In this document: piece by piece, positions 2,547 to 63,493 of the stretch
How the letters are laid out: every line of letters begins with the position of its first letter
Position numbering within the stretch: the stretch's first letter is position 1
From: Flectonema sp. DT1601
Lineage: Eukaryota
Assembly: GCA_964019425.1 (NCBI GenBank)
Contig: OZ025784.1
Location: forward strand, 1,612,001-1,676,000
DNA length: 64,000 nucleotides
Reading direction: 5' to 3'
Made by a program: the position numbers and the translations under genes
The notes under the pieces: generated by a model
The model's input: only the letters and a program-made list of their open reading frames with translations
Databases searched by the model: none
Told to the model about the DNA's origin: nothing

Positions 2547-3240
2547 AGCTTTGCGCATTTTCGCAATCATTTCTTTTATTTTTATTTGTTTCCCCAGTTT
2601 GAAACACTGCCGTTTGTAAGTACAAACGTCTGTGTGAAAAGCGCCAAAAAACCAATATTCGGCCCTATTAATTCTCTTTTCCCATTCCCCATTTTATCTT
2701 ACGGGAGTCAAAGGAATCTTTATACCATTAGCAAACAACGTTATCTTGGGAAGTAGCAGCTTCTTGTTATCATGCTGCTGAATTCGATGAGGGCTCCATT
2801 GCGAAGGAGGTACGCTATTTTCAAAAAAAAAAAAAAAAAAACAACTCCGAAATTGTATTTGCGTTATAATTACTGTTTTCATGTTTTTTTTTTTTTTTTT
2901 TTTGGTATTTTGTCACGTAGTGAGAGTGTAAGGCGTCTCTTCCTACGAAATTTTATATTTCTTCGGGCAGTGTTCACCTTTTTTTCAATTATTTCTTTTT
3001 ATTTTTTTATTTCTACTACCTCGGTGCCTATGACCGCCGTGCCTGCATCGATCCCAAGCGATTCCTCATTTTTCAGAATTAGTCGGCATGCTGGTTTAGT
3101 GTTGTCATGCTGTCTTGTTAAGTATAGGTTCAGACAATAAGTTTATTACATTATCTAATACAGAGTTAAAAATATGAGAAGGAATAGCCATGTGAATATT
3201 ACTAATGGTAATTATTATTTTGGAAGAGGAGAAAAAAAAA

Positions 3241-3305
3241 AAAGAGTTGTTCAGAACAGCGAAAAAACCTTTTGGGTGCAGGTGACAGGCAACGGAGAAT
3301 TTTCC
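3241..3305. mobile_element. Partial (right-end) copy of the MITE at 25902-26119
   Basis: AAAGAGTTGTTCA..AGCGAAAAA..TTGGGTG..GGCAACGGAGAATTTTCC matches the 3' half and TIR of that element. Confidence 0.55.
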
Positions 3306-7554: not shown

Positions 7555-9507
7555 ATGAATAAGTTGCTGCGATTTCGAAAACCGTACGTTGGGACCCCGT
7601 CAGCACTGCATGCGAAGATTCTAATTGACGGAAGGTTTGCCTGTTGGGTGTTTTGATTTCTGTATTCGCAATACTTCGTACTTGTGTTCCCTGACAAAGT
7701 TTCTTCTTTAACTTATTTTGTTCCTTTTTCGTCGTGAGGGCATTCGAGTGCTCGTTGTTTTCACTTTGTTGCACATCTTTGAAGAACTCGTGTGTCCTCA
7801 TCAACACACAAACAGTGTTCCTTGTTTGAAGACTATTGAGAAGTTGAATGAAAAAGGTTTTGATGGAAGTTACGACCAGGTGTTGATCTTCTTCTGTTTT
7901 AGTTCTCTTTTCTGTGAATCTCACATTGCAACCTCCGAGTGCAATGCAGCCAACTGAGTGTTGACAACCACTTCAATACCTCACTCAATCAGATTTGTCA
8001 AGCACGTAGTCTACAGCGAGCAAGAGTTGGCAGCGAGACGGCACTCGCTGATTGGAAGGTTGGTAAGTTCCCCATAAGAGATGTTTTGTGTGAGAGGAAA
8101 CCTTACGTTGGGAAGCCATCGAAGGAACATGAAAGGATTCTGATTGACAAAAGGTATTCTTTTGTTTGAATTGAAAGCACTCCTGTTGTGCAACTGGCAA
8201 TCGAATACCACAACTGAATACTAATTACAGCGTTTCGTATGCAGAGACGGGTCGTAGGTTGGATGCCATGGGATATGATGGGAATTTCAATCAGGTGTGT
8301 GTTTGTTGTAACGTGAGAATGTGTTTCTCTCATTACTCGTAGTGCCTAGTATTCGCGTTGTACTGTTGGTGTTGATTTGATGTCACACGTTGAGGAATTG
8401 ATTTGGAGTAGAGTCTGCAATGTTTCTAAATTAGTAAAACTGTTTAGCAATTCATCTTATTGCTTCTCAGCTTTGATCGATTTAAATAACTTTAATCTGA
8501 ATCAGATAACAACTGCGAGACGAAACCAGTTTGCGAGAGTTGGTATGGACGCTGACCAACGTGACAGGGAACACATCACAGTCATCTTATCGAAGAGGAA
8601 ACCTTACGTTGGGAAGCCATCGAAGGAACATGAAAGGATTCTGATTGACAAAAGGTATTCTTTTGTTTGAATTGAAAGCACTCCTGTTGTGCAACTGACA
8701 ATCGAATACCACAACTGAATACTAATTACAGCGTTTCGTATGCAGAGACGGGTCGTAGGTTGGACGCCATGGGATATGATGGGAATTACCATCAGGTGTG
8801 TGTGTGTTGTACCGTGAGTATGTAGTGTCCGCGTCATCTTTCATTACATTACAGTCATTTAAGGTATTAAAAAGACAGATAAAATACTCCCGTTTCAATC
8901 AAAGAGCATCAATCGGTAGGTCTCAGCAAGTGGGGAAGTCTCAACAGACTAATTCCCGTTGGTCTCCTTCCATCAACTTCGTTGGGAAGACGAGGGATGG
9001 CGGGGAGTACCTGGTGGTGGTTGGGACGGGGATCACGGATCTGACGAGCTGCAGGGTGGATGGAAAGACTGATGCGGCTGTGCACGTGACGGTGTGTCAG
9101 AATCTGAAAGGAGAGGACGTGGAGTTGGAGGCGGGGGAGTACACCAACTCGGTATGTGAATCCTCATAATGAATAGCATTGTGTGCACTGTGTGGTGATG
9201 TTGGAGCAGAAATGCCATCCGTGGTGTTTGCCTGAGAATAGAAAGGCAGGGCGGAGAAAACAATTCACAGCGGAGGCTGCCCTCAGGGATATTGCCGGAA
9301 GCAGGTGGGAAGTGCCGAGTGAGGATCGAAGGAGGTGTGGCGATGTTGAGGATCCCCATCGTGAAAGACGTTTTGTCTGTTCCGCAGGTGGTGGAGGTGG
9401 TTGAGGGTGTGAGGAGTTGGGAGGAGTTGCTGGAGGAAGTAGTACCAGAGGTAGTGCTGAAGGAAGAAGTGATGAAAGCATCCGTCCCTGTTGATGAGGA
9501 GTCTTGA
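7555..9507 (+). CDS. HTH-like repeat + alpha-crystallin-like protein, copy 1 (3 repeats, 8 exons, 363 aa)
   Basis: Exons 7555-7634, 7816-7879, 7993-8153, 8231-8294, 8506-8654, 8732-8795, 8879-9151 and 9271-9507 join by GT-AG into one uninterrupted ORF. Helix motifs: YDQ|ICQARS, FNQ|ITTARR, YHQ|IKYSRF. The start codon is less certain. Confidence 0.8.
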
Positions 9508-10193
9508 CAGGACACTCTGATTCCTATTTGATGAACCATCTCTCATAGTTCCCTTGTGTTGAATGTTGACCTCTTTTAGTATTACTTGAATCTTTGTTAT
9601 CAACAGGGAGTACAACATCATAATGTAAATAGTACTTGAGTAGTGAAGTAAAGGATTACAAGAATAATGATTGAGAATAGTTCTGTAGAATAACCAAAAG
9701 GTTTAAAGTCCTTTAATATCAATTTCTTAATAAATAGGAGTTCAAAGTACTTCTCAAGGGAAGAAGATGATGATGATGATGATGTATTATAAAGAAACAA
9801 TAAAATAAAATTCGATTTTGTAATAATCGTAATTGTTAGTAATGAATTGATAAATAATATATTTTTTTCAGTCAAAAAAAAGTAATGTAAATTGTTTACA
9901 GATGGCAGCTGAAGAGTGAGGAACTGATTGTTTGTTTTTTCTTCATATTTGGATTCTCTGAGTTAGTGTTATCGAGTAGCATTCTAACATCTCGTGGAAT
10001 ACAATCAGATTCCTAATTGATCGTCTCACAGCTAATTTAATGAATTGGTTCACAGATGATGACAAAAGAACAAAGCTAATTCAACTCTGTTAGAGAACTG
10101 TTGACCGCAGAGTAAGTAATCGGAGGCATTTTATGATTCTGTTCTGGTGGTGGGAAATCTAATTTCTAATTACCTTCTGCAGCATACACTGTG

Positions 10194-11677
10194 ATGAATA
10201 AGTTGCTGCGATTTCGAAAACCGTACGTTGGGACCCCGTCAGCACTGCATGCGAAGATTCTAATTGACAGAAGGTTTGCCTGTTGGGTGTTTTGATTTCT
10301 GTATTTGGAATACTTCGTACTTGTGTTCCCTGACAAAGTTTCTTCTTTAACTTATTTTGTTCCTTTTTTGTCGTGAGGGCATTCGAGTGTTCGTTGTTTT
10401 CACTTTGTTGCACATCTTTGAAGAACTTGTCTGTCCTCATCAACACACAAACAGTGTTCCTTGTTTGAAGACTATTGAGAAGTTGAATGAAAAAGGTTTT
10501 GATGGAAGTTACGACCAGGTGTTGATCTCTTCTTCTGTTTTAGTTCTCTTTTCTGTTAATCTCACATTGCAACCTCCGAGTGCAATGCAGCCAACTGAGT
10601 GTTGACAACCACTTCAATACCTCACTCAATTAGATTTGTCAAGCACGTAGTCTACAGCGAGCACCAGTTTGCACAGAGAAGACACTCGCTGATTGGAAGG
10701 TTGGTAAGTTCCCCATTGGAGATGTTTTATCTGAGAGGAAACCTTACGTTGGGAAGCCATCGAAGGAACATGAAAGGATTCTGATTGACAAAAGGTATTC
10801 TTTTGTTTGAATTGAAAGCACTCCTGTTGTGCAACTGGCAATCGAATACCACAACTGAATACTAATTACAGCGTTTCGTATGCAGAGACGGGTCGTAGGT
10901 TGGATGCCATGGGATATGATGGGAATTACCATCAGGTGTGTGTTTGTTGTACCGTAAGAATGTAGTATCCGCTTCATCTTTCATTACTCTTCCAAGTTGA
11001 AGTAGAGTTTATATGTCATTTAAGGTTTTAAAACGACAGATAAAATACTCCCGTTTCAATCAAAGAGCTTCAATCGGTATGTCTCAGCAAGTGGGGAAGT
11101 CTCAACAGACTAGTTCCCGTTGGTCTCCTTCCATCAACTTCGTTGGGAAGACGAGGGATGGCGGGGAGTACCTAGTGGTGGTTGGGACGGGGATCACGGA
11201 GCTGACGAGCTGCAGGGTGGATGGAAAGACTGATGCGGCTGTGCACGTGACGGTGTGTCAAAATCTGAAAGGAGAGGACGTGGAGTTGGAGGAGGGGGAG
11301 TACACCAACTCGGTATGTGAATCCTCATAATGAATAGCATTGTGTGCACTGTGTGGTGATGTTGGAGCAGAAATGCCATCCGTGGTGTTTGCCTGAGAAT
11401 AGAAAGGTTGGAAGAAGAAAACAATTCACAGCGGAGGCTGCCCTCAGGGATCTTGCCGGAAGCAGGTGGGAAGTGCCGAGTGAGGATCGAAGGAGGTGTG
11501 GCGATGTTGAGGATCCCCATCGTGAAAGACGTTTTGTCTGTTCCGCAGGTGGTGGAGGTGGTTGAGGGTGGGAAGGGTGTGAGGAGTTGGGAGGAGTTGC
11601 TGGAGGAAGTAGTACCAGAGGTAGTGCTGAAGGAAGAAGTGATGAAAGCATCCGTCCCTGTTGATGAGGAGTCTTGA
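10194..11677 (+). CDS. HTH-like repeat + alpha-crystallin-like protein, copy 2 (2 repeats)
   Basis: Same exon plan; variable exons start at 10634 (YDQ|ICQARS) and 11040 (YHQ|IKYSRF). Confidence 0.8.
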
Positions 11678-11988: not shown

Positions 11989-13605
11989 ATGCAGCATACT
12001 GATATTAACATCTCTTTAGAACCGTACCGTCAAACTCTGAGTGAATTAACTTCAAGAAGGAACAAAGAGATGAAAGAAGTCATGCGATTTACTGAATACG
12101 AAAGTGAGAATACAACAAACAAAACAAATGGTAAGATGATGAAGAAGTTTAAAAGTGAAGAATGGAATCAAATTGAGAAATACTTGAAAGAGACGATGCT
12201 TCACAATACAACATACGACTATGGAGGGTTATTAAAGAACAAGAACACTAACTCGACTATCACTACCAGTAGTAAGTTAAACAGCATGCATGATAAAAAT
12301 AGACACCATCAGCAATTATCATACTTCGCAACCGGAAATGAAGTTTTTGTTTTTCCAGATAGAATGACGAGAGAAGGAGTGACGAGAGAGATTGTTAATA
12401 GGAGACTGCGATACCTTGCTGAGCAACCAAAGAAACTCTGGCCAAGAGGAAGACCAATGAATCATAAAAGTGATATTTTAGATCGAAACATCAACAAACA
12501 AGTAGCTCCTCTGTCTTCTATTCTACAGCAACGAATTGAAAGATGTAAACAGTCAAAAGATTATCAAAAAGAAGTTAGGAAACGTCATCAACAACAATTA
12601 GAATCCCGTGAGAGGAATCTTATTCAAAAACTATCAGACAAAGCTATGAAGTGTTGTAAAGATGACCTACAGCAGAAGAGATCACGATGTGAAAGCTGGT
12701 TGAAAACAATACAAAGCATCAACTCAATGGCGACCGTAAGGATTATTATCCAGTACAACAGAGCGCTGGTGGGAATCCGAGAACGTGAAGAAAAAACCGT
12801 GAGAAACGCAAGAAAGAGATTGATGGATCCGGTAACAGAAAGACGACGAGTCATGAGCAGGGAATTAATTACGAAATTAACAAGAAAAGTAAAACCAGTT
12901 CTGGGGTTGTTCAGAAATGTTAAACAACTGAATGATAGTATTAATATTGTGAAAGCATCATTTAACAACAGAGGACTATGTAAGTACAGAATTAGATTAT
13001 TTGTAAGACACGTTATATCATTACAAAGGTTCGCAAGGAGGTTACGAAGAACAAACAAAGCCAGACTCGCTCTTTTCATCGTTCAGTTTAACTCATTGGA
13101 AGCAGCAGTTCTAAAGGCTGACTCATCCCCTGGAGGAGGAGGTGGAGGAGGAGTTCTGTCTCCAGGGATACTACATTCGGTGAAAAGGAAAGTTCTTGAA
13201 TCTGAAATCACAGAACTACTGACGGTGTATAAACTTGCTTTGGGAATGTGGAAACAATGTGGTGATGTTGCTCGCAGGAACCTTCAAGAAGTTGAACATT
13301 CACTCAGAGCTCGTTTTTTGTTGGGATCTTCCAACAGCTGTGATGTGAACAACAGTCATCCTGCAATCCCTCACTTGGTCAGAATCTTACCTTCGACTAT
13401 AATGCAAGATATCATTCTTAAAGCAGCCCGAGTACAAAACGAAGTGGAGTCAAACTGGGAAGTTGACCCTCACATTAGCAAACATAACATTATAAAAGAA
13501 AGACAACAATGCATAACAAATATTTACTATTCTGAGAAGAAGAAGGAACAATTATTTCTGGAAAAGGTCGACGTGGGATTAAGGAAATATGGAAGTTCAC
13601 TTTAG
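11989..13605 (+). CDS. Basic coiled-coil protein with IQ-like motif, 538 aa, copy A
   Basis: Long ORF with VISLQRFARRLRR (IQ-like) and a Gly7 tract. An AG immediately upstream means further 5' exons are possible. Confidence 0.75.
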   Translation: MQHTDINISLEPYRQTLSELTSRRNKEMKEVMRFTEYESENTTNKTNGKMMKKFKSEEWNQIEKYLKETMLHNTTYDYGGLLKNKNTNSTITTSSKLNSMHDKNRHHQQLSYFATGNEVFVFPDRMTREGVTREIVNRRLRYLAEQPKKLWPRGRPMNHKSDILDRNINKQVAPLSSILQQRIERCKQSKDYQKEVRKRHQQQLESRERNLIQKLSDKAMKCCKDDLQQKRSRCESWLKTIQSINSMATVRIIIQYNRALVGIREREEKTVRNARKRLMDPVTERRRVMSRELITKLTRKVKPVLGLFRNVKQLNDSINIVKASFNNRGLCKYRIRLFVRHVISLQRFARRLRRTNKARLALFIVQFNSLEAAVLKADSSPGGGGGGGVLSPGILHSVKRKVLESEITELLTVYKLALGMWKQCGDVARRNLQEVEHSLRARFLLGSSNSCDVNNSHPAIPHLVRILPSTIMQDIILKAARVQNEVESNWEVDPHISKHNIIKERQQCITNIYYSEKKKEQLFLEKVDVGLRKYGSSL

Positions 13606-14045: not shown

Positions 14046-15943
14046 ATGAATAAGTTGCTGCGATTTCGAAAACCGTACGTTGGGACCCCGTCAGCACTGC
14101 ATGCGAAGATTCTAATTGACGGAAGGTTTGCCTGTTGGGTGTTTTGATTTCTGTATTCGCAATACTTCGTACTTGTGTTCCCTGACAAAGTTTCTTCTTC
14201 AAATTTATTTTGTTCCTTTTTTGTCGTGAGGGCATTCGAGTGTTCGTTGTTTTCACTTTGTTGCACATCTTTGAAGAACTTGTCTGTCCTCATCAACACA
14301 CAAACAGTGTTCCTTATTTGAAGACTATTGAGAAGTTGAATGAAAAAGGTTTTGATGGCAGTTACCACCAGGTGTTGATCTCTTCTTCTGTTTTAGTTCT
14401 CTTTTCTGTTAATCTCACATTGCAACCTCCGAGTGCAATGCAGCCAACTGAGTGTTGACAACCACTTCAATACCTCACTCAATCAGATTCATCATGCACG
14501 TAGTCTACAGCGAGCACAAGTTGGCAGCGAGAAGACACTCGCTGATTGGAAGGTTGGTAAGTTCCCCACGAAAGATGTTTTGTGTGAGAGGAAACCTTAC
14601 GTTGGGAAGCCATCGAAGGAACATGAAAGGATTCTGATTGACAAAAGGTATTCTTTTGTTTGAATTGAAAGCACTCCTGTTGTGCAACTAGCAATCGAAT
14701 ACCACAACTGAATACTAATTACAGCGTTTCGTATGCAGAGACGGGTCGTAGGTTGGATGCCATGGGATATGATGGGAATTACAATCAGGTGTGTGTCTGT
14801 ACTGTTGGTGTTGATTTGCTGTCAAACGTTGAGGAATTGATTTGGAGTAGAGTCTGCAATGTTTCTAAATTAGTAAAACTGTTTAGCAATTCATCTTATT
14901 GCTTCTCAGCTTTGAACGATTTAAATAACTTTAAACTGAATCAGATAACAACTGCGAGACAGAAACAGTTTGCGGGAGTTGGTATGTACGCACAACGAGA
15001 GTCTATCAAAATTGTCTTATCGAAGAGGAAACCTTACGTTGGGAAGCCATCGAAGGAACATGAAAGGATTCTGATTGACAAAAGGTATTCTTTTGTTTGA
15101 ATTGAAAGCACTCCTGTTGTGCAACTAGCAATCGAATACCACAACTGAATACTAATTACAGCGTTTCGTATGCAGAGACGGGTCGTAGGTTGGATGCCAT
15201 GGGATATGATGGGAATTATAATCAGGTGTGTGTTTGCTGTACCGTGGGAATGTGTTTCTTTCATTACTCTTCTTTGTTAAAGGAAACAACAACAGATACG
15301 CAAAGCTCGTTGTAATCATCTAAGAGCTCCAGTCGTTATGTCTCGACAGTCTAGTTCTCGATGTTTAGGAACTGCTGCTCGTAGTTGGTCTCCTTCCATC
15401 AACTTCGTTGGGAAGACGAGGGATGGCGGGGAGTACCTGGTGGTGGTTGGGACGGGGATCACGGAGCTGACGAGCTGCAGGGTGGATGGAAAGACTGATG
15501 CGGCTGTGCACGTGACGGTGTGTCAGAATCTGAAGGGAGAGGACGTGGAGTTGGAGGCGGGGGAGTACACCAACTCGGTATGTGAATCCTCATAATGAAT
15601 AGCATTGTGTGCACTGTGTGGTGATGTTGGAGCAGAAATGCCATCCGTGGGTGTTTGCCTGAGAATAGAAAGGTTGGAAGAAGAAAACAATTCACAGCGG
15701 AGGCTGCCCTCAGGGATCTTGCCGGAAGCAGGTGGGAAGTGCCGAGTGAGGATCGAAGGAGGTGTGGCGATGTTGAGGATCCCCATCGTGAAAGACGTTT
15801 TGTCTGTTCCGCAGGTGGTGGAGGTGGTTGAGGGTAGGAAGGGTGTGAGGAGTTGGGAGGAGTTGCTGGAGGAAGTAGTACCAGAGGTAGTGCTGAAGGA
15901 AGAAGTGATGAAAGCATCCGTCCCTGTTGATGAGGAGTCTTGA
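14046..15943 (+). CDS. HTH-like repeat + alpha-crystallin-like protein, copy 3 (3 repeats)
   Basis: Variable exons start at 14487 (YHQ|IHHARS), 14945 (YNQ|ITTARQ) and 15296 (YNQ|IRKARC); the frame is preserved. Confidence 0.8.
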
Positions 15944-16263: not shown

Positions 16264-17910
16264 ATGCAGCATACTGATATTAACATCTCTTTAGAACCGT
16301 ACCGTCAAACTCTGAGTGAATTAACTTCAAGAAGGAACAAAGAGATGAAAGAAGTCATGCGATTTACTGAATACGAAAGTGAGAATACAACAAACAAAAC
16401 AAATGGTAAGATGATGAAGAAGTTTAAAAGTGAAGAATGGAATCAAATTGAGAAATACTTGAAAGAGACGATGCTTCACAATACAACATACGACTATGGA
16501 GGGTTATTAAAGAACAAGAACACTAACTCGACTATCACTACCAGTAGTAAGTTAAACAGCATGCATGATAAAAATAGACACCATCAGCAATTATCATACT
16601 TCGCAACCGGAAATGAAGTTTTTGTTTTTCCAGATAGAATGACGAGAGAAGGAGTGACGAGAGAGATTGTTAATAGGAGACTGCGATACCTTGCTGAGCA
16701 ACCAAAGAAACTCTGGCCAAGAGGAAGACCAATGAATCATAAAAGTGATATTTTAGATCGAAACATCAACAAACAAGTAGCTCCTCTGTCTTCTATTCTA
16801 CAGCAACGAATTGAAAGATGTAAACAGTCAAAAGATTATCAAAAAGAAGTTAGGAAACGTCATCAACAACAATTAGAATCCCGTGAGAGGAATCTTATTC
16901 AAAAACTATCAGACAAAGTTATGAAGTGTTGTAAAGATGACCTACAGCAGAAGAGATCACGATGTGAAAGCTGGTTGAAAACAATACAAAGCATCAACTC
17001 AATGGCGACAGTAAGGATTATTATCCAGTACAACAGAGCGCTGGTGGGAATCCGAGAACGTGAAGAAAAAACCGTGAGAAACGCAAGAAAGAGATTGATG
17101 GATCCGGTAACAGAAAGACGACGAGTCATGAGCAGGGAATTAATTACGAAATTAACAAGAAAAGTAAAACCAGTTCTGGGGTTGTTCAGAAATGTTAAAC
17201 AACTGAATGATAGTATTAATATTGTGAAAGCATCATTTAACAACAGAGGACTATGTAAGTACAGAATTAGATTATTTGTAAGACACGTTATATCATTACA
17301 AAGGTTCGCAAGGAGGTTACGAAGAACAAACAAAGCCAGACTCGCTCTTTTCATCGTTCAGTTTAACTCATTGGAAGCAGCAGTTCTAAAGGCTGACTCA
17401 TCCCCTGGAGGAGGAGGTGGAGGAGGAGGAGGAGGTGGAGGAGGAGGTGGAGGAGGAGTTCTGTCTCCAGGGATACTACATTCGGTGAAAAGGAAAGTTC
17501 TTGAATCTGAAATCACAGAACTACTGACGGTGTATAAACTTGCTTTGGGAATGTGGAAACAATGTGGTGATGTTGCTCGCAGGAACCTTCAAGAAGTTGA
17601 ACATTCGCTCAGAGCTCGTTTTTTGTTGGGATCTTCCAACAGCTGTGATGTGAACAACAGTCATCCTGCAATCCCTCACTTGGTCAGAATCTTACCTTCG
17701 ACTATAATGCAAGATATCATTCTTAAAGCAGCCCGAGTACAAAACGAAGTGGAGTCAAACTGGGAAGTTGACCCTCACATTAGCAAACATAACATTATAA
17801 AAGAAAGACAACAATGCATAACAAATATTTACTATTCTGAGAAGAAGAAGGAACAATTATTTCTGGAAAAGGTCGACGTGGGATTAAGGAAATATGGAAG
17901 TTCACTTTAG
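16264..17910 (+). CDS. Coiled-coil/IQ-like protein, copy B (548 aa, Gly17)
   Basis: Nearly identical to 11989-13605, with a 10-codon poly-Gly expansion. Confidence 0.75.
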   Translation: MQHTDINISLEPYRQTLSELTSRRNKEMKEVMRFTEYESENTTNKTNGKMMKKFKSEEWNQIEKYLKETMLHNTTYDYGGLLKNKNTNSTITTSSKLNSMHDKNRHHQQLSYFATGNEVFVFPDRMTREGVTREIVNRRLRYLAEQPKKLWPRGRPMNHKSDILDRNINKQVAPLSSILQQRIERCKQSKDYQKEVRKRHQQQLESRERNLIQKLSDKVMKCCKDDLQQKRSRCESWLKTIQSINSMATVRIIIQYNRALVGIREREEKTVRNARKRLMDPVTERRRVMSRELITKLTRKVKPVLGLFRNVKQLNDSINIVKASFNNRGLCKYRIRLFVRHVISLQRFARRLRRTNKARLALFIVQFNSLEAAVLKADSSPGGGGGGGGGGGGGGGGGVLSPGILHSVKRKVLESEITELLTVYKLALGMWKQCGDVARRNLQEVEHSLRARFLLGSSNSCDVNNSHPAIPHLVRILPSTIMQDIILKAARVQNEVESNWEVDPHISKHNIIKERQQCITNIYYSEKKKEQLFLEKVDVGLRKYGSSL

Positions 17911-18347: not shown

Positions 18348-19807
18348 ATGAATAAGTTGCTGCGATTTCGAAAACCGTACGTTGGGACCCCGTCAGCACT
18401 GCATGCGAAGATTCTAATTGACAGAAGGTTTGCCTGTTGGGTGTTTTGATTTCTGTATTTGCAATACTTCGTACTTGTGTTCCCTGACAAAGTTTTTTCT
18501 TCAAATTTATTTTGTTCCTTTTTTGTCGTGAGGGCATTCGAGTGTTGGTTGTTTTCACTTTGTTGCACATCTTTGAAGAACTTGTCTGTCCTCATCAACA
18601 CACAAACAGTGTTCCTTATTTGAAGACTATTGAGAAGTTGGGTGAAAAAGGTTTTGATGGCAGTTACCACCAGGTGTTGATCTCTTCTTCTGTTTTAGTT
18701 CTCTTTTCTGTGAATCTCACATTGCAACCTCCGAGTGCAATGCAGCCAACTGAGTGTTGACAACCACTTCAATACCTCACTCAATCAGATTCTTAAGGCA
18801 CGTAGTCTACAGCGAGCACCAGTTGGCACAGAGAAGGCACTCGCTGATTGGAAGGTTGGTAAGTTCCCCATAAGAGAAGTTTTGTCTGAGAGGAAACCTT
18901 ACGTTGGGAAGCCATCGAAGGAACATGAAAGGATTCTGATTGACAAAAGGTATTCTTTTGATTGAATTGAAAGCACTCCTGTTGTGCAACTGGCAATCGA
19001 ATACCACAACTGAATACTAATTACAGTGTTTCGATTGCAGAGACGGGTCGTAGGTTGGATGCCATGGGATATGATGGGAATTACAATCAGGTGTGTGTTT
19101 GTTGTACCGTGAGAAGGTAGTGTGTGTGTCATGTTTCATTACTCTTCTTTGTTGAGGAAATAACGACAGATAAGAAATTGTCGTTTTAATCAAAGGGTCG
19201 GTATGTCTCGACAGACTAATTCTCGATGTTCAGGAACTGCTACTCGTAGTTGGTCTCCTTCCATCAACTTCGTTGGGAAAACGAGAGATGGCGGGGAGTA
19301 CCTGGTGGTGGTTGGGACGGGGATCACGGATCTGAAGAGCTGCAGGGTGGATGGAAAGACTGATGCGGCTGTGCACGTGACGGTGTGTCAGAATCTGAAG
19401 GGAGAGGACGTGGAGTTGGAGGAGGGGGAGTACACCAACTCGGTATGTGAATCCTCATAATGAATAGCATTGTGTGCACTGCGTGGTGATGTTGGAGCAG
19501 AAATGCCATCCGTGGTGTTTGCCTGAGAATAGAAAGGTAGAATCAAGAAAACAATTCACAGCGGAGGCTGCCCTCAGGGATCTTGCCGGAAGCAGGTGGG
19601 AAGTGCCGAGTGAGGATCGAAGGAGGTGTGGCGATGTTGAGGATCCCCATCGTGAAAGACGTTTTATCTGTTCCGCAGGTGGTGGAGGTGGTTGAGGGTG
19701 GGAAGGGTGTGAGGAGTTGGGAGGAGTTGCTGGAGGAAGTAGTACCAGAGGTAGTGCTGAAGGAAGAAGTGATGAAAGCATCCGTCCCTGTTGATGAGGA
19801 GTCTTGA
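18348..19807 (+). CDS. HTH-like repeat + alpha-crystallin-like protein, copy 4 (2 repeats)
   Basis: Variable exons start at 18789 (YHQ|ILKARS) and 19170 (YNQ|IRNCRF). Confidence 0.8.
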
Positions 19808-20112: not shown

Positions 20113-21729
20113 ATGCAGCATACTGATATTAACATCTCTTTAGAACCGTACCGTCAAACTCTGAGTGAATTAACTTCAAGAAGGAACAAAGAGATGAAAG
20201 AAGTCATGCGATTTACTGAATACGAAAGTGAGAATACAACAAACACAACAAATGGTAAGATGATGAAGAAGTTTAAAAGTGAAGAATGGAATCAAATTGA
20301 GAAATACTTGAAAGAGACGATGCTTCACAATACAACATACGACTATGGAGGGTTATTAAAGAACAAGAACACTAACTCGACTATCACTACCAGTAGTAAG
20401 TTAAACAGCATGCATGATAAAAACAGACACCATCAGCAATTATCATACTTCGCAACCGGAAATGAAGTTTTCGTTTTTCCAGATAGAATGACGAGAGAAG
20501 GAGTGACGAGAGAGATTGTTAATAGGAGACTGCGATACCTTGCTGAGCAACCAAAGAAACTCTGGCCAAGAGGAAGACCAATGAATCATAAAAGTGATAT
20601 TTTAGATCGAAACATCAACAAACAAGTAGCTCCTCTGTCTTCTATTCTACAGCAACGAATTGAAAGATGTAAACAGTCAAAAGATTATCAAAAAGAAGTT
20701 AGGAAACGTCATCAACAACAATTAGAATCCCGTGAGAGGAATCTTATTCAAAAACTATCAGACAAAGTTATGAAGTGTTGTAAAGATGACCTACAGCAGA
20801 AGAGATCACGATGTGAAAGCTGGTTGAAAACAATACAAAGCATCAACTCAATGGCGACAGTAAGGATTATTATCCAGTACAACAGAGCGCTGGTGGGAAT
20901 CCGAGAACGTGAAGAAAAAACCGTGAGAAACGCAAGAAAGAGATTGATGGATCCGGTAACAGAAAGACGACGAGTCATGAGCAGGGAATTAATTACGAAA
21001 TTAACAAGAAAAGTAAAACCAGTTCTGGGGTTGTTCAGAAATGTTAAACAACTGAATGATAGTATTAATATTGTGAAAGCATCATTTAACAACAGAGGAC
21101 TATGTAAGTACAGAATTAGATTATTTGTAAGACACGTTATATCATTACAAAGGTTCGCAAGGAGGTTACGAAGAACAAACAAAGCCAGACTCGCTCTTTT
21201 CATCGTTCAGTTTAACTCATTGGAAGCAGCAGTTCTAAAGGCTGACTCATCCCCTGGAGGAGGAGGTGGAGGAGGAGTTCTGTCTCCAGGGATACTACAT
21301 TCGGTGAAAAGGAAAGTTCTTGAATCTGAAATCACAGAACTACTGACGGTGTATAAACTTGCTTTGGGAATGTGGAAACAATGTGGTGATGTTGCTCGCA
21401 GGAACCTTCAAGAAGTTGAACATTCACTCAGAGCTCGTTTTTTGTTGGGATCTTCCAACAGCTGTGATGTGAACAACAGTCATCCTGCAATCCCTCACTT
21501 GGTCAGAATCTTACCTTCGACTATAATGCAAGATATCATTCTTAAAGCAGCCCGAGTACAAAACGAAGTGGAGTCAAACTGGGAAGTTGACCCTCACATT
21601 AGCAAACATAACATTATAAAAGAAAGACAACAATGCATAACAAATATTTACTATTCTGAGAAGAAGAAGGAACAATTATTTCTGGAAAAGGTCGACGTGG
21701 GATTAAGGAAATATGGAAGTTCACTTTAG
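20113..21729 (+). CDS. Coiled-coil/IQ-like protein, copy C (538 aa)
   Basis: About two amino-acid differences from copy A. Confidence 0.75.
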   Translation: MQHTDINISLEPYRQTLSELTSRRNKEMKEVMRFTEYESENTTNTTNGKMMKKFKSEEWNQIEKYLKETMLHNTTYDYGGLLKNKNTNSTITTSSKLNSMHDKNRHHQQLSYFATGNEVFVFPDRMTREGVTREIVNRRLRYLAEQPKKLWPRGRPMNHKSDILDRNINKQVAPLSSILQQRIERCKQSKDYQKEVRKRHQQQLESRERNLIQKLSDKVMKCCKDDLQQKRSRCESWLKTIQSINSMATVRIIIQYNRALVGIREREEKTVRNARKRLMDPVTERRRVMSRELITKLTRKVKPVLGLFRNVKQLNDSINIVKASFNNRGLCKYRIRLFVRHVISLQRFARRLRRTNKARLALFIVQFNSLEAAVLKADSSPGGGGGGGVLSPGILHSVKRKVLESEITELLTVYKLALGMWKQCGDVARRNLQEVEHSLRARFLLGSSNSCDVNNSHPAIPHLVRILPSTIMQDIILKAARVQNEVESNWEVDPHISKHNIIKERQQCITNIYYSEKKKEQLFLEKVDVGLRKYGSSL

Positions 21730-22165: not shown

Positions 22166-23621
22166 ATGAATAAGTTGCTGCGATTTAGAAAACCGTACGT
22201 TGGGACCCCGTCAGCACTGCATGCGAAAATTCTAATTGACAGAAGGTTTGCCTGTTGGGTGTTTTGATTTCTGTATTTGCAATACTTCGTACTTGTGTTC
22301 CCTGACAAAGTTTCTTCTTTAACTTTTTTTGTTCCCTTTTTTGTCGTGAGGGCATTCGAGTGTTGGTTGTTTTCACTTTGTTGCACATCTTTGAAGAACT
22401 TATCTGTCCTCATCAACACACAAACAGTGTTCCTTATTTGAAGACTATTGAGAAGTTGAATGAAAAAGGTTTTGATGGCAGTTACGACCAGGTGTTGATC
22501 TCTTCTTCTGTTTTAGTTCTCTTTTCTGTGAATCTCACATTGCAACCTCCGAGTGCAATGCAGCCAACTGAGTGTTGACAACCACTTCAATACCTCACTC
22601 AATTAGATTCAACAAGCACGTAGGCTGCAGCGAGCAGTAGTTGGCACAGAGAAAACAGTCGCTGATTGGAAGGTTGGTAAGTTCCATGCAAGAGATGTTT
22701 TGTTTGAGAGGAAAGGTTACGTTGGGAAGCCATCGAAGGAACATGAAAGGATTCTGATTGACAAAAGGTATTCTTTTGTTTGAATTGAAAGCACTCCTGT
22801 TGTGCAACTGGCAATCGAATACCACAACTGAATACTAATTACAGCGTTTCGATTGCAGAGACGGGTCGTAGGTTGGATGCCATGGGATATGATGGGAATT
22901 ACCATCAGGTTTGTGTTTGCTGTAGTGAGAATGTGTTGTCAGTTTCATCTTTCATCAGTGTGGTAATTAATCACAGATTCACAAAGCTCGTTGTAATCAA
23001 AGAGCTCCAGTCGGTATGTCCCAACAGACTAATACTCGATGTTCAGGAACTGCTACTCGTAGTTGGTCTCCTTCCATCAACTTCGTTGGGAAGACGAGGG
23101 ATGGCGGGGAGTACCTGGTGGTAGTTGGAACGGGGAACACGGATCTGACGAGCTGCAGGGTGGATGGAAAGACTGATGCGGCTGTGCACGTGACGGTGTG
23201 TCAGAATCTGAAGGGAGAGGACGTGGAGTTGGAGGCGGGGGAGTACACCAACTCGGTATGTGAATCCTCATAATGAATAGCATTGTGTGCACTGTGTGGT
23301 GATGTTGGCGCAGAAATGCCATCCGTGGGTGTTTGCCTGAGAATAGAAAGGCAGGAAGAAGAAAACAATTCACAGCGGAGGCTGCCCTCAGGGATCTTGC
23401 CGGTAGCAGGTGGGAAGTGCCGAGTGAGGATCGAAGGAGGTGTGGCGATGTTGAGGATTCCCATCGTGAAAGACGTTTTGTCTGTTCCGCAGGTGGTGGA
23501 GGTGGTTGAGGGTGGGAAGGGTGTGAGGAGTTGGGAGGAGTTGCTGGAAGAAGTAGTACCAGAGGTAGTGCTGAAGGAAGAAGTGATGAAAGCATCCGTC
23601 CCTGTTAATGAGGAGTCTTGA
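22166..23621 (+). CDS. HTH-like repeat + alpha-crystallin-like protein, copy 5 (2 repeats)
   Basis: Variable exons start at 22607 (YDQ|IQQARR) and 22977 (YHQ|IHKARC). Confidence 0.8.
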
Positions 23622-24576
23622 CAGGACACTCTGATTCCTATTTGATGAACCATCTCTCATAGTTCCCTTGTGTTGAATGTTGACCTCTTTTAGTATTACT
23701 TGAATCTTTGTTATCAACAGGGAGTACAACATCATAATGTAAATAGTACTTGAGTAGTGAAGTAAAGGATTACAGAGGGTGTTGAAACTTTTCTAATTTA
23801 AGATTTTCGAATTGTTATTTAATTCTTATTTTCTTCAACAAGATTTGTAATCTGAAGATTTCAATGGATGAAATTAAAATCTTTCAGTGAGTATCAATTG
23901 GTGGACGAGTCTGGTCATCACCCCGCTCTTTGGTGATGTTCTTAGCAAGAAAGTTAAGAATATTTAGCAGAAAGAAGTTTTTCTAATTCATGAGATTGTG
24001 TTTTTTGTGTAGCTCACTTAAATTGAGCATTATTCTGTCGAGAACTTTGTGTTCGCTTATGTCGTCTTTGTCTAGAAAGTAATTCTACGGATTAAGAATG
24101 ATGACCAATACTTGTAATTGAGGTTTACGATGAGAAGAGTGAAGACTTCCACTTTGAAGTAGTATCTGTTACGGAAAGTATTCTTAAAGTTCTCACTCCT
24201 CATCTTTAACATGAACTGGATTTCATTTTCTTTTTTCAGAACTTCTCTCTTTTCCTAAATAACATTACAACCTGAGAGTGAATGTACGAAGATGATTAAA
24301 TTAGAAGAGAGTTGTGAACTATCAAAGTATTCTAAACCTGTTCATTGACTTCATCATAGCAGTGATCAATTGTACTCTGAACACTACACTATCAAAGAAG
24401 GAAAGGTTTGAAAGTTCTTTAAATAACATTTACCTCACTTCAGGTGTGAAAAGGTCATGTTGTGTGTAACATTATCGTAGCTGCTTGCTGACTTCCATTT
24501 AGTTATGAAGTTGAGAATTGAGAGAAGTGTTTTGTACATAATTCCACATCAGCTGCTTTGGTTATATAAAGTGGAA

Positions 24577-27140
24577 ATGAATAAATTATTAAGATTTCGA
24601 AAACCGTACGTTGGGACCCCGTCAGCACTGCATGCGAAGATTCTAATTGACAGAAGGTTTGCCTGTTGGGTGTTTTGATTTCTGTATTTGGAATACTTCG
24701 TACTTGTGTTCTCTGACAAAGTTTCTTCTTTAACTTATTTTATTTCCTTTTTTGTCGTGAGGGCATTCGAGTGTTCGTTGTTTTCACTTTGTTGCACATC
24801 TTTGAAGAACTTGTCTGTCCCCATCAACACACAAACAGTGTTCCTTATTTGAAGACTATTGAGAAGTTGAATGAAAAAGGTTTTGATGGCAGTTACAACC
24901 AGGTGTTGATCTCTTCTTCTGTTTTAGTTCTCTTTTCTGTGAATCTCACATTGCAACCTCCGAGTGCAATGCAGCCAACTGAGTGTTGACAACCACTTCA
25001 ATACCTCACTCAATCAGATTTGTCAAGCACGTAGTCTACAGCGAACACCGGTTGGCACAGAGAAGACACTCGCTGATTGGAAGGTTGGTAAGTTCCCCAC
25101 AAAAGATGTTTTATCTGAGAGGAAACCTTACGTTGGGAAGCCATCGAAGGAACATGAAAGGATTCTGATTGACAAAAGGTATTTTGTTTGAATTGAAAGC
25201 ACTCCTGTTGTGCAACTGGCAATCGAATACCACAACTGAATACTAATTACAGCGTTTCGATTGCAGAGACGGGTCGTAGGTTGGATGCCATGGGATATGA
25301 TGGGAATTACAATCAGGTGTGTGTCTGTACTGTTGGTGTTGATTTGATGTCACACGTTGAGGAATTGATTTGGAGTAGAGTCTGCAATGTTTCTAAATTA
25401 GTAAAACTGTTTAGCAATTCATCTTATTGCTTCTCAGCTTTGATCGATTTAAATAACTTTAAACTGAAGCAGATAATGACTGCGAGAGAAAACCAGTTTG
25501 CGGGAGTTGGTATGGACGCTGATCAACGTGACAGGGAACCCATCACAGTCATCTTATCGAAGAGGAAACCTTACGTTGGGAAGCCATCGAAGGAACATGA
25601 AAGGATTCTGATTGACAAAAGGTATTCTTTTGATTGAATTGAAAGCACTCCTGTTGTGCAACTGGCAATCGAATACCACAACTGAATACTAATTACAGCG
25701 TTTCGTATGCAGAAACGGGTCGTAGGTTGGATGCCATGGGATATGATGGGAATTACAATCAGGTGTGTGTCTGTACTGTTGGTGTTGAGTTGATGTCACA
25801 CGTTGAGGAATTGATTTGGAGTAGAGTCTGCAATGTTTCTAAATTAGTAAAACTGTTTAGCAATTCATCTTATTGCTTCTCAGCTTTGATCGATTTAAAT
25901 AGGAAATTTCCCCGTTGCTACTCCAAAACTTTATTTTTCTCCGTTGTAGTCCACCTATAAGGATTTTTCTCCGTTGTGTTTTCTTTTCTTTTCTTTTTTT
26001 GCTGTTGTGTGCACAACAGCGAGAAAACTAAAAGAGTTGTTCACAATAGCGAAAAATCTTCTTGGGTGTAGGCAACGGAGAAAAAGCTTTTTTTTAATGT
26101 AGGCAACTGAGAATTCTCCATCTAAATAACTTTGAACTGAATCAGATAACAACTGCGAGACAAAACAAGTTTGCGCGAGTTGGTATGGATGCACAACGAG
26201 AATCTATCAAAGTTGTGTTATCGAAGAGGAAACCTTACGTTGGGAAGCCATCGAAGGAACATGAAAGGATTCTGATTGACAAAAGGTATTCTTTTGATTG
26301 AATTGAAAGCACTCCAGTTGTGCAACTGGCAATCGAATACCACAACTGAATACTAATTACAGCGTTTCGTATGCAGAGACGGGTCGTAGGTTGGATGCCA
26401 TGGGATATGATGGGAATTACCATCAGGTGTGTGTTTGCTGTACCGTGGGAATGTGTTTCTTTCATTACTCTCCTTAGTTGAGGAAACAACGACAGATACA
26501 CAAAGCTCGTTCTAATCAAAGGGCACTTGTCGGTATGTCTCGACAGTCTAGTTGTCGATGTTCAGGAACTGCTACTCGTAGTTGGTCTCCTTCCATCAAC
26601 TTCGTTGGGAAGACGAGGGATGGCGGGGAGTACCTGGTGGTGGTTGGGACGGGGATCACGGATCTGACGAGCTGCAGGGTGGATGGAAAGACTGATGCGG
26701 CTGTGCACGTGACGGTGTGTCAGAATCTGAAGGGAGAGGACGTGGAGTTGGAGGCGGGGGAGTACACCAACTCGGTATGTGAATCCTCATAATGAATAGC
26801 ATTGTGTGCACTGTGTGGTGATGTTGGCGCAGAAATGCCATCCGTGGGTGTTTGCCTGAGAATAGAAAGGTTGGAAGAAGAAAACAATTCACAGCGGAGG
26901 CTGCCCTCAGGGATCTTGCCGGAAGCAGGTGGGAAGTGCCGAGTGAGGATCGAAGGAGGTGTGGCGATGTTGAGGATCCCCATCGTGAAAGACGTTTTGT
27001 CTGTTCCGCAGGTGGTGGAGGTGGTTGAGGGTGGGAAGGGTGTGAGGAGTTGGGAGGAGTTGCTGGAGGAAGTAGTACCAGAGGTAGTGCTGAAGGAAGA
27101 AGTGATGAAAGCATCCGTCCCTGTTGATGAGGAGTCTTGA
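24577..27140 (+). CDS. HTH-like repeat + alpha-crystallin-like protein, copy 6 (4 repeats)
   Basis: Variable exons start at 25018 (YNQ|ICQARS), 25473 (YNQ|IMTARE), 26146 (YNQ|ITTARQ) and 26496 (YHQ|IHKARS). A MITE lies in one intron. Confidence 0.8.
25902..26119. mobile_element. 218-bp MITE with ~17-bp TIRs and 9-bp TSD (Mutator-like)
   Basis: Absent from the paralogous introns (near 8480, 14920, 25450). Ends GGAAATTTCCCCGTTGC / GCAACTGAGAATTCTCC; flanks ATTTAAATA / ATCTAAATA. Confidence 0.8.
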
Positions 27141-29311: not shown

Positions 29312-30773
29312 ATGAATAAGTTGCTGCGATTTCGAAAACCGTACGTTGGGACCCCGTCAGCACTGCATGCGAAGATTCTAATTGACAGAAGGTTTGCCTG
29401 TTGGGTGTTTTGATTTCTGTATTTGGAATACTTCGTACTTGTGTTCCCTGACAAAGTTTCTTCTTTAACTTTATTTGTTCCCTTTTTCTTGTGAGGGCAT
29501 TCGAGTGTTCGTTGTTTTCACTTTGTTGCACATCTTTGAAGAACTTGTCTGTCCTCATCAACACACAAACAGTGTTCCTTGTTTGAAGACTATTGAGAAG
29601 TTGAATGAAAAAGGTTTTGATGGCAGTTGCGACCAGGTGTTGATCTCTTCTTCTGTTTTAGTTCTCTTTTCTGTGAATCTCACTTTACAACCTCCGAGTG
29701 CAATGCAGCCACTGAGTGTTGACAACCACTTCAATACCTCACTCAATTAGATTCGTCACGCACGTAGTCTACAGCGAGCACCAGTTGGCAAAAAGAAGAC
29801 ACTCGCTGATTGGAAGGTTGGTAAGTTCCCCATAAGAGATGTTTTATCTGAGAGGAAACGTTACGTTGGGAAGCCATCGAAGGAACATGAAAGGATTCTG
29901 ATTGACAAAAGGTATTCTTTTGTTTGAATTGAAAGCACTCCTGTTGTGCAACTGGCAATCGAATACCACAACTGAATACTAATTACAGCGTTTCGTATGC
30001 AGAGACGGGTCGTAGGTTGGATGCCATGGGATATGATGGGAATTACCATCAGGTGTGTATTTGCTGTAGTGAGAATGTAGTGTCTGTGTCTTGTTTCACT
30101 ACTCTTCTTAGTTGAAGGAAATAACGACAGATAAGAAATTGTCGTTTCGATCAAAGAGCTGCTATCAGTTTGTCTCGACAGTCTAGTTCTCGATGTTCAG
30201 GAACTGCTACTCGTAGTTGGTCTCCTTCCATCAGCTTCGTTGGGAAGACGAGGGATGGCGGGGAGTACCTGGTGGTGGTTGGGACGGGGATCACGGATCT
30301 GAAGAGCTGCAGGGTGGATGGAAAGACTGATGCGGCTGTGCACGTGACGGTGTGTCAGAATCTGAAGGGAGAGGACGTGGAGTTGGAGGAGGGGGAGTAC
30401 ACCAACTCGGTATGTGAATCCTCATAATGAATAGCATTGTGTGCACTTGGTGGTGATGTTGGAGCAGAAATGCCATCCGTGGTGTTGCTTGAGGAAAGAA
30501 AGGTAGGAAGAAGAAAACAATTCACAGCGGAGGCTGCCCTCAGGGATCTTGCCGGAAGCAGGTGGGAAGTGCCGAGTGAGGATCGAAGGAGGTGTGGTGA
30601 TGTTGAGGATCCCCATCGTGAAAGACGTTTTGTCTGTTCCGCAGGTGGTGGAGGTGGTTGAGGGTGCGAAGGGTGTGAGGAGTTGGGAGGAGTTGCTGGA
30701 GGAAGTAGTACCAGAGGTAGTGCTGAAGGAAGAAGTGATGAAAGCATCCGTCCCTGTTGATGAGGAGTCTTGA
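29312..30773 (+). CDS. HTH-like repeat + alpha-crystallin-like protein, copy 7 (2 repeats)
   Basis: Variable exons start at 29751 (CDQ|IRHARS) and 30131 (YHQ|IRNCRF). Confidence 0.8.
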
Positions 30774-51660: not shown

Positions 51661-52200
51661 GCTCGAAAAACCATCCATTATGTGTTTGGTTGTCCTACGA
51701 ATCATTTAATTTATTTTTATGATAATTTTTTTTCTAATTATTTTTTGCTACACCACTCTTGGGCATGTATCCTCGTCAGCTTGTATATTAAGGTAGACAG
51801 TTTCGCTTTGTTCTGAGTTTAAAAAGAAAACCAATAAATATAAACAGAAACCTTTCCTTCTTTAACTTTATATAATAATAATTAAATAGTAATTCTTAGT
51901 GCGACAAATAACATTAAAAAAAAAAAAAAAAAACACACACACGTAACTGGTTTAGATTGTTTTTGTTATAATTTAGTGGGGAGGTTCGACTTGATTACTT
52001 GCTGTACTCAAAATTCTTATATATTTTAAAAAGTTATTATTCTCAATGATAAGATTAATGATTATTTGTGTTATGTTCACATAATTATTATTATCTTTTC
52101 AACAGGATTAACAGGATCGGTAGTCTCGTCATTCAGAAATCATTAAAATAGTAATAATCTGATATCCCTATTTCCTAATTAGACTCAACTACATCTAAAG

Positions 52201-61714: not shown

Positions 61715-61831
61715 TTAGCGACTACAAATATTCTTTTCAGTCATGTACTTGATATTAGTTTTATATTTATACGTAAAGTTGTTACTGTTTTTATATTGTC
61801 CCAGTTACACCCCCCTCAACTACATCTAAAG

Positions 61832-63001: not shown

Positions 63002-63493
63002 GTCCTCGCGTCTTTAATTTCATTACATTGTAGAACTCGTGTTTGTCGCAAAGCCAAATGAGTCGAAATTGTGATTGCAACTTCTGAACTTCTGTTGAAA
63101 CAAGAGCGGAATTAGTAGTTCGATTCAGCGAATACGACCAAAAACTCTTTTTATCTTAAACGATCTTCGCACGTTACTGACTGCCAGCGATGGCACTCGT
63201 TGCATGAGCGATGAGTCTGCTGTGTATTTTAAAGCTCTGAGTTAACCAGCGTGTATTGTTCAATTAACGTAACCTTCTATTCGTATTATGTTTATTCACC
63301 CTAACGGTGCCACCCGCAGATTCCAGCTCTGTGGCGTTCGTGTTTCTTTTATTTGTAATTCTCGTACGTGGATATTACTTCCTATTTTGTCAAGGAAGAT
63401 TATCTTAATATTTCTACAGTGAAATCTAGTAGGCAATACTTCTGTGTTGTTATTGTTGTTGTTGTTGTTTATGTTATTTGCTTGCAGGATTCA

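What the first reader, a model, noticed from the sequence alone, without database searches (positions are those of the whole stretch)
7879..8879. Each repeat is a symmetric exon-pair cassette with a phase-0 intron splitting the variable helix
Seen: the module is a phase-0 intron, a 140-161 nt exon (3n+2), a phase-2 intron, a 64-nt exon and another phase-0 intron. Gain or loss of a cassette keeps the frame, which explains the 2-4 repeat variation. The phase-0 intron falls between xQ and IxxARx, so one variable residue is in one exon and the others are in the next. Inference: intronic recombination or exon skipping, possibly across neighbouring copies on a long co-directional pre-mRNA, could reshuffle specificities combinatorially.
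Basis: partly seen in the sequence, partly recalled or inferred. Interest (0 to 1): 0.72.

Follow-up and report, generated by a model that had tools for sequence, protein, structure and literature searches.

The report
Shuffled DNA-reader repeats in a protist
Seven side-by-side gene copies, likely from a marine diplonemid protist, each carry two to four repeats of a predicted DNA-binding helix-turn-helix domain whose likely base-reading helix is split by an intron and varies fast; the copies likely trade pieces by DNA recombination, while reshuffling by splicing is untested.

Summary
Seven tandem genes (7555-30773) have 2-4 repeats, each built from a 140/149/161-nt exon, a phase-2 intron, a 64-nt exon and a phase-0 intron between xQ and IxxARx. 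All 43 introns are GT-AG and 7 of 7 frames are open. Transcript-derived proteins of the diplonemid Flectonema neradi, the only credible relatives found, cross or retain introns at these same positions. A spliced relative folds as a three-helix helix-turn-helix. The intron splits helix 3, and the variable residues sit at i, i+3, i+4, i+7, the spacing of TRF1's base contacts.

The copies look mosaic, and one intron is a fossil intron-to-intron junction. But exchanges fall in exons as often as in introns. Repeat number is most simply changed by crossover in a 236-nt shared block, which mostly keeps helix 3 intact, and the upstream residue has only two states in later repeats. Exon skipping is untested; splicing between copies is unlikely. 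Best reading: a fast-evolving, zinc-finger-array-like DNA-reader family built from HTH repeats. DNA binding and positive selection are inferred, not shown.

The parts
7555..9507 (+). Gene copy 1: 3 repeats plus C-terminal beta-rich domain, 363 aa model
7555..7634 (+). Exon A0 (80 nt): start, basic arm and helix 1 of repeat 1; ends phase 2. True start codon not confirmed
7816..7879 (+). Exon B0 (64 nt): helix 2, turn and first turn of helix 3 of repeat 1, with variable residue -2
7880..7992 (+). Phase-0 intron, first class (113-115 nt), splits helix 3; nearly invariant among copies (pi 0.015)
7993..8153 (+). Exon A1 (161 nt): rest of helix 3 (variable +2, +3, +6), variable linker, arm and helix 1 of repeat 2
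8154..8230 (+). Phase-2 intron (77 nt), part of the homogenised shared block
8231..8294 (+). Exon B (64 nt) of repeat 2
8295..8505 (+). Phase-0 intron (211 nt), chimeric: terminal-type 44-nt head, about 20 unique nt, internal-type body
8506..8654 (+). Exon A2 (149 nt; 140 nt in two other cassettes): the optional internal cassette
8655..8731 (+). Phase-2 intron (77 nt)
8732..8795 (+). Exon B (64 nt) of repeat 3
8796..8878 (+). Phase-0 intron, terminal class (68-104 nt), the most variable intron (pi about 0.2, gap-rich alignment)
8879..9151 (+). Exon C (273 nt, phase 0-0): end of last helix 3, variable linker, first half of conserved beta-rich domain
9271..9507 (+). Exon D: second half of C-terminal domain and acidic tail, stop
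10194..11677 (+). Gene copy 2, 2 repeats
14046..15943 (+). Gene copy 3, 3 repeats
18348..19807 (+). Gene copy 4, 2 repeats
22166..23621 (+). Gene copy 5, 2 repeats
24577..27140 (+). Gene copy 6, 4 repeats
25902..26119 (.). 218-nt MITE-like insertion with long imperfect inverted repeats and a 9-bp flanking repeat (8/9), inside a phase-0 intron of copy 6
29312..30773 (+). Gene copy 7, 2 repeats
11992..13605 (+). Unrelated 537-aa single-ORF spacer gene, co-duplicated in the array (also 16267-17910, 20116-21729, 5'-truncated 27507-28874)

Best explanation
This is a tandem array of seven intact genes, likely from a diplonemid, each encoding two to four predicted helix-turn-helix repeats that would likely read DNA sequence, and the array likely diversifies by DNA-level unequal crossing-over and gene conversion plus fast change of the predicted recognition-helix residues, rather than mainly by splicing. 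Shown: the exon-pair anatomy, the open frames, the position of the phase-0 intron, the concentration of amino-acid change just around and after it, and non-tree-like site patterns. Predicted: three-helix fold with the intron in the first turn of helix 3. Inferred: a non-homologous join inside a phase-0 intron founded the optional internal cassette (the one step where phase symmetry was needed). Later gains and losses ran through the near-identical 236-nt block (exon tail, phase-2 intron, 64-nt exon), which usually moves helix 3 as a unit. Shorter conversions, in exons and introns alike, occasionally re-pair residue -2 with a different +2/+3/+6 set. Diversifying selection on binding specificity is likely, as in an arms race with mobile or repeated DNA; the target is not known.
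For: Anatomy and frames. Junctions confirmed in F. neradi transcript-derived relatives. AlphaFold model of P0001: helices 45-52, 58-67, 74-85 and again 115-121, 128-137, 144-159, block pLDDT about 83-92 in both domains. The structural neighbour lists are dominated by HTH DNA binders (Tc3 bipartite domain first in Foldseek, E 0.22; terminase HTH, GT-1, SANT, Myb, homeodomains, TRF1 at Z 3.3-4.8). Variable positions -2,+2,+3,+6 = i,i+3,i+4,i+7, the spacing of TRF1 V418/K421/D422/R425 (PMC5737604 passages); the end-point offset of the TRF1 row puts them in that register. The same positions vary in first and terminal repeats (overlap p 0.0005) and in the F. neradi proteins, with Q and R constant and I kept in spliced junctions. 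11 changes in the 12 nt of these codons against 42 in 469 intron nt. pN 0.30 and 0.36 at these codons against 0.02 in domain cores and 0.011 in the C-terminal domain. Mosaicism and intron junction. 15 distinct four-residue codes among 18 repeats.
Against: No fold match is significant (0 Foldseek hits at E<=0.001; best Z 4.8, below the level the tool calls informative; pTM 0.41) and no Pfam or PDB sequence match names the repeat. DNA binding is untested. Within the four codons the N:S count is 16:6, about neutral, and does not differ significantly from the conserved parts (19:18, p 0.10), so dN/dS>1 is not shown. The linker after helix 3 is as variable (two other i,i+3,i+4,i+7 windows also reach 11 changes). 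The neighbour-compatibility test for recombination is significant only for the terminal part (p 0.03; first cassette p 0.10), and recurrent mutation can mimic it. One haplotype of one array; assembly not checked against reads.
Confidence: 0.6

Rival explanations
1. One reading: the symmetric cassettes are used at RNA level. Skipping of exon pairs, possibly across neighbouring copies on a polycistronic pre-mRNA, joins any upstream half-helix to any downstream half-helix and makes a combinatorial repertoire.
For: Every phase-0 donor is frame-compatible with every downstream phase-0 acceptor, including exons C and D. All listed long gene-like ORFs of the array are on the + strand. Exon skipping occurs in Diplonema (PMC10161547 section 7), and repeat exons of brown algal ROCO genes are alternatively spliced (PMC11378527 abstract). 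Within-gene skipping would add 8 codes to 15.
Against: The gain is small because the 11 later 64-nt exons give only 5 peptides and two states at -2. The four F. neradi fragments show intron retention, not recognisable skipping, although without their genome skipping could not be seen. Copies are 1.8-3.6 kb apart from last donor to next acceptor, with stops and in 4 of 6 intervals another gene. Alternative splicing is estimated at 5% of multi-exon genes in D. papillatum. Repeat-number variation is already present in the DNA.
Confidence: 0.12
2. Neutral birth-and-death array: a young, weakly expressed family in which crossing-over and conversion from more diverged paralogues elsewhere import blocks of differences; the variable head of each exon marks relaxed constraint or conversion tracts, not selected specificity.
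For: N:S in the variable codons is about neutral. The linker is equally variable. Exon heads move as blocks, for example the head shared by copies 1 and 2. The relatives' transcripts are often incompletely spliced.
Against: Variation far exceeds the adjacent introns (first-class phase-0 intron: 4 changes in 108 nt). Q and R in the same helix are invariant in 18 of 18 repeats, as is I. 7 of 7 frames are intact, with in-frame indels only. Cores and C-terminal domain are under purifying selection.
Confidence: 0.18
3. The repeats are three-helix modules that bind RNA or protein (SANT-like), or act in the mitochondrion on its many small DNA circles, rather than reading nuclear DNA.
For: SANT domains are among the structural neighbours. 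Gene control in Diplonema is thought to be mostly post-transcriptional. The short basic N-terminus could be a targeting signal (my impression, untested).
Against: A basic N-terminal arm and an invariant Arg in helix 3 fit DNA-binding HTH domains (established knowledge, recalled). Most neighbours are DNA-bound HTH structures. The diplonemid mitochondrial proteome paper has no occurrence of 'helix-turn-helix', 'HTH' or 'DNA-binding' in its main text (supplements not read).
Confidence: 0.1

Closest known systems
PRDM9 and other C2H2 zinc-finger arrays
   Same: Tandem DNA-reading modules with a homogenised backbone, variable contact residues on one helix, and repeat number changed by unequal crossover and conversion (PMC6116924 passages). 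This is what it most likely works like.
   Different: Different fold (three-helix HTH of 65-75 aa with linker, no C2H2). The PRDM9 array is a single exon, whereas here two introns interrupt every repeat and one splits the variable helix. Only 2-4 repeats, but many gene copies. No SET domain found; no function shown.
Brown algal ROCO LRR and NB-ARC-TPR exon-shuffled repeats
   Same: Exon-encoded repeats, shuffling and diversification proposed to change ligand specificity (abstracts of PMC3341825 and PMC11378527).
   Different: There one exon encodes one repeat, and alternative splicing is reported. Here two exons encode a repeat out of register with the domain, the module is a predicted nucleic-acid binder, and splicing variation is untested.
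Myb/SANT, TRF1 telobox, trihelix GT-1 and homeodomain HTH domains
   Same: Three-helix fold, basic N-terminal arm, variable residues at i,i+3,i+4,i+7 of helix 3.
   Different: No Pfam match, identity 4-23% in the structural rows, no regularly spaced tryptophans, Z below 5.
Bipartite HTH domains of Tc3/mariner transposases and Pax paired domains
   Same: Two HTH units joined by a linker; Tc3 is the first Foldseek row and Pax6, Pax5, Mos1 and SETMAR appear.
   Different: All E>0.2. No transposase family matched any exon tested or the spacer gene.

Membership tests
Helix-turn-helix superfamily (three-helix type) | Three-helix bundle with helix 2-turn-helix 3 | tested here: met
   AlphaFold model of the spliced relative P0001, block pLDDT about 83-92 in both repeats; the window's own spliced repeat was not folded
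Helix-turn-helix superfamily (three-helix type) | Significant structural or profile match to a known HTH family | tested here: inconclusive
   Rows are mostly HTH but Foldseek E>=0.22 and VIA Z<=4.8; Atlas lead 0.76 to an HTH cluster, under the tool's 0.9 level
Helix-turn-helix superfamily (three-helix type) | Sequence-specific DNA binding through helix 3 | not testable with these tools
   needs a binding assay
Myb/SANT | Regularly spaced Trp core (feature recalled) and Pfam Myb match | tested here: not met
   No Trp in the repeat core of 18 window repeats; no Myb family at E<=10 for the four relatives
Myb/SANT | Base-contact register i,i+3,i+4,i+7 in helix 3 | tested here: met
   register taken from range end-points, not from a residue-level alignment
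PRDM9 / C2H2 zinc-finger arrays | C2H2 fingers in a single-exon array | tested here: not met
PRDM9 / C2H2 zinc-finger arrays | Homogenised backbone with variable contact residues and copy-number change | tested here: met
PRDM9 / C2H2 zinc-finger arrays | Positive selection (omega>1) at contact residues | tested here: inconclusive
   about 10-fold excess over introns, but N:S 16:6 and p 0.10 against conserved parts
Exon-shuffled repeat receptors (algal ROCO/NB-ARC-TPR) | One repeat per exon | tested here: not met
   two exons per repeat
Exon-shuffled repeat receptors (algal ROCO/NB-ARC-TPR) | Mosaic exchange of repeat exons between paralogues | tested here: met
   with the caveat of recurrent mutation
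Exon-shuffled repeat receptors (algal ROCO/NB-ARC-TPR) | Alternative splicing of repeat exons | not testable with these tools
   no RNA of this genome could be laid on the window
DNA transposase (Tc1/mariner, MULE) | Catalytic domain within the duplicated unit | tested here: inconclusive
   no transposase Pfam family on single exons or the spacer ORF; the spliced protein could not be scanned against Pfam
HSP20 / alpha-crystallin (C-terminal domain) | Profile match to alpha-crystallin domain | tested here: inconclusive
   A profile of 30 IbpA-like Hsp20s scored the spliced domain -1.4 bits, 684 of 2000 shuffles as high; hhalign probability 0.2%. The profile is narrow; the half-domain model had pLDDT 45

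The most novel reading that the evidence does not exclude
Diplonemids have evolved their own programmable DNA readers: a zinc-finger-array equivalent made of helix-turn-helix repeats, in which the recognition helix is assembled from two exons, so that both recombination in the intron and exon-pair skipping mix half-helices into new specificities, used in an arms race with transposons or to mark chromosomal sites in a lineage thought to have little transcription-factor control.
Probability: 0.15. Interest if true: 0.88.

Novelty: new variant of a known kind. Interest (0 to 1): 0.6.

Why it matters
Euglenozoans transcribe genes polycistronically and are thought to regulate little at transcription initiation, so an expanding, fast-changing family of predicted sequence readers is unexpected there. 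It offers candidates for open questions: what targets 5mC, base J or RNAi to diplonemid repeats, and what marks their centromeres (the putative CENP-A is not on metaphase rings). If the four-residue code sets specificity, it would be a natural modular HTH code beside zinc fingers and TALEs. The exon-phase symmetry by itself is the ordinary signature of an internally duplicated gene; the interest lies in the family.

Tried and rejected
No whole genome is held for the window, so family size elsewhere is unknown. Sequencing-run search: none was listed, so no reads were laid; this says nothing about expression. Word-indexed homologue searches: exon C, longer proteins, none; P0001, near length, 3 F. 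neradi proteins only; alignment A4, longer proteins, none. Whole-library HMMER gave 6 hits; I kept 4 (F. neradi) and dropped 2 (P0004, P0006: long repetitive ENA proteins whose best stretches lie mainly on the intron-derived profile positions). Metagenome scan: 45 pattern matches, none confirmed. Pfam, PHROGs and PDB sequence searches named neither the repeat nor the C-terminal domain. Atlas: no usable hit for the intron read-through ORF, a 0.76 HTH lead for P0001. Viral fold library: nothing at E<=0.001. My early idea that the C-terminal domain is HSP20-like came from an eyeball motif; the test gave no support, and no sHSP was listed for a low-confidence half-domain model. A TAR=Gln code was considered for a decayed upstream segment and not needed: the long ORFs and gene models are open under the standard code. 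Earlier scan notes: none by place, sequence or words. Literature searches that did not show this family in the listings: (listings only; the library lacks most subscription papers; supplements of the Diplonema papers were not read and could list such proteins).

Full report
Setting. The window is eukaryotic. Bases 7500-30900 hold seven tandem copies of one gene. A 537-aa single-ORF gene lies between copies in 4 of 6 intervals, once 5'-truncated. No genome is held. The only credible relatives among 1.84 billion representatives are four transcript-derived proteins labelled Flectonema neradi (4 of 6 hits kept), a diplonemid genus. They are only 46-61% identical to the window proteins, so I infer a diplonemid but not the species.

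Observation. The gene model is A0(80)-B0(64)-A1(161)-B(64)-[A2(140/149)-B(64)]n-C-D with n = 0-2. All A exons end in phase 2 and all B exons end in phase 0; 7 of 7 frames are open. 43 of 43 introns are GT-AG, and exon length differences are all multiples of three while intron lengths are not. The finding's coordinates run exactly from the end of B0 to the start of C. The relatives confirm the junctions independently: P0003 is ungapped over 99 aa across two introns; P0001 crosses both junction types twice; P0002 carries a 20-aa insert at the phase-2 site and runs into intron-like sequence at the phase-0 site. All four look incompletely spliced at an end or inside, which I infer from the protein sequences alone.

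What the repeat is. AlphaFold on P0001 gives two confident three-helix domains, each preceded by a basic RKPYVG arm. The Q|I junction (residues 76|77) is in the first turn of helix 3 (74-85). Structure searches return mostly HTH DNA binders (Tc3, Pax, Myb, SANT, GT-1, TRF1, homeodomains), none significant. Among 18 window repeats, Q, I and R of xQIxxARx are invariant, while -2, +2, +3 and +6 vary, giving 15 different four-residue codes. This i,i+3,i+4,i+7 spacing equals that of TRF1's base-facing V418, K421, D422, R425 (PMC5737604, passages), and the end-point offset of the TRF1 row places the variable residues on them; I had no residue-level alignment. The C-terminal domain is conserved (pN 0.011, pS 0.037), beta-rich in a poor half-domain model, and unnamed; my HSP20 guess got no support.

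Selection. In the seven orthologous first repeats the four codons hold 11 changes in 12 nt, against 42 in 469 intron nt (Poisson p 2e-8). The positions variable in first repeats are also variable in terminal repeats (p 0.0005) and in the relatives. Against this: the sites were first seen in these data; two windows of the same spacing in the linker reach the same count; and N:S within the codons is 16:6, not significantly different from 19:18 in conserved parts (p 0.10). Diversifying selection on the helix and following linker is likely, not proven.

How the array changes. The copies are mosaic: 206 of 378 informative pairs in the first cassette and 498 of 1770 in the terminal part are incompatible, with minimum 12 and 17 exchange intervals. 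A neighbour test gives p 0.10 and 0.03. Of 105 triplets, the 14 printed all reach the permutation floor of 0.0005, uncorrected. Recurrent mutation and a gap-rich terminal intron inflate these counts. By my count, 14 intervals are wholly exonic, 7 wholly intronic and 8 mixed; 9 of 29 lie between codons -2 and +2. All four combinations of -2 with codon +4 occur in terminal repeats. Copy 7 shares an intron-head deletion with copy 5 but its helix head with copy 4. The intron 8295-8505 has a terminal-type head joined to an internal-type body; I cannot tell whether it is the founding junction or a fresh recombinant. Three facts limit the idea. The phase-0 intron classes are unrelated in sequence (copy 3). 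The homology shared by all 11 later repeats is a 236-nt block at 90-98%, of which about 23 nt (a boundary I set) lie past codon -2. Residue -2 tends to follow the class of the downstream head (N in 4 of 4 internal, H in 5 of 7 terminal; p 0.06). So crossover in the block explains the 2-4 variation, keeps the frame through homology, and mostly moves helix 3 whole. Phase symmetry matters for rare non-homologous joins in the intron.

RNA-level shuffling. Any A+B or B+A pair, or exon C, could be skipped in frame. The gain would be modest: 8 codes added to 15, since the 11 later B exons encode 5 peptides with two states at -2. It could not be tested here. Splicing between copies must cross 1.8-3.6 kb. 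In D. papillatum essentially all mRNAs carry a spliced leader, taken to mean processing into monocistronic units, and alternative splicing is put at 5% of multi-exon genes, though exon skipping is reported (PMC10161547, passages and sections 7 and 9). These are facts of a relative, not of this organism.

Comparison and novelty. It works most like PRDM9-type zinc-finger arrays (PMC6116924, passages) but is not a member: different fold and intron-split repeats. The exon logic resembles brown algal ROCO and TPR repeats (abstracts only), which have one exon per repeat. It is not a canonical Myb. Listings from seven literature searches showed no description of this family; passages of PMC12699882, PMC8061765 and bioRxiv 2025.03.21.644664 did not mention it for the terms I searched. 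I rate it a new variant of a known kind.

Verdict. Observation confirmed; interpretation partly supported. Best explanation: a fast-evolving HTH-array reader family diversified in DNA (0.6). Splicing-level combinatorics 0.12, neutral drift with conversion 0.18, non-DNA or mitochondrial role 0.10. Interest 0.6.

Noticed in passing
window 25902-26119: 218-nt insertion with long imperfect terminal inverted repeats and a 9-bp flanking repeat (8/9 match) inside a phase-0 intron of copy 6; MITE-like, and a 9-bp duplication suggests the Mutator type (recalled). A weak 77% match lies at 3231-3299.
   Followed up: partly
window 11992-13605, 16267-17910, 20116-21729, 27507-28874: The co-duplicated 537-aa spacer gene is almost invariant (pi 0.004), far less than even most introns of the repeat genes (0.008-0.045). 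Only its poly-Gly tract changes length. No Pfam match; an IQ-like motif by eye.
   Followed up: partly
window 14789-14944 and 25317-25472: The 156-nt phase-0 introns have no stop and are a multiple of three, so retention would insert 52 aa into helix 3 in frame.
   Followed up: no
P0001, P0002, P0003, P0005: All four F. neradi proteins have intron-like ends or inserts, hinting at inefficient splicing or low expression. P0001 has heads in the order X-Y-X, which could be real or an assembly loop.
   Followed up: partly
window 9900-10185 and copies before genes 3, 4, 5, 7: A spliced-looking upstream segment (ATG, two intron-like stretches) with stops that differ between copies; probably a decayed gene fragment or an intron-containing 5' region carried along in the unit.
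   Followed up: no
window 24520-24600: Copy 6 has an unrelated upstream region, and its first codons differ synonymously while keeping the same peptide, which supports the ATG at 24577 as a real start.
   Followed up: partly
window 52184-53503 and 61815-63134: A 1.32-kb segment with a 395-aa ORF that looks like an alpha-galactosidase (by eye) is duplicated at 99.5% identity.
   Followed up: no
window 55241-56644: BspA-type leucine-rich-repeat gene with a 75-nt tandem repeat.
   Followed up: no
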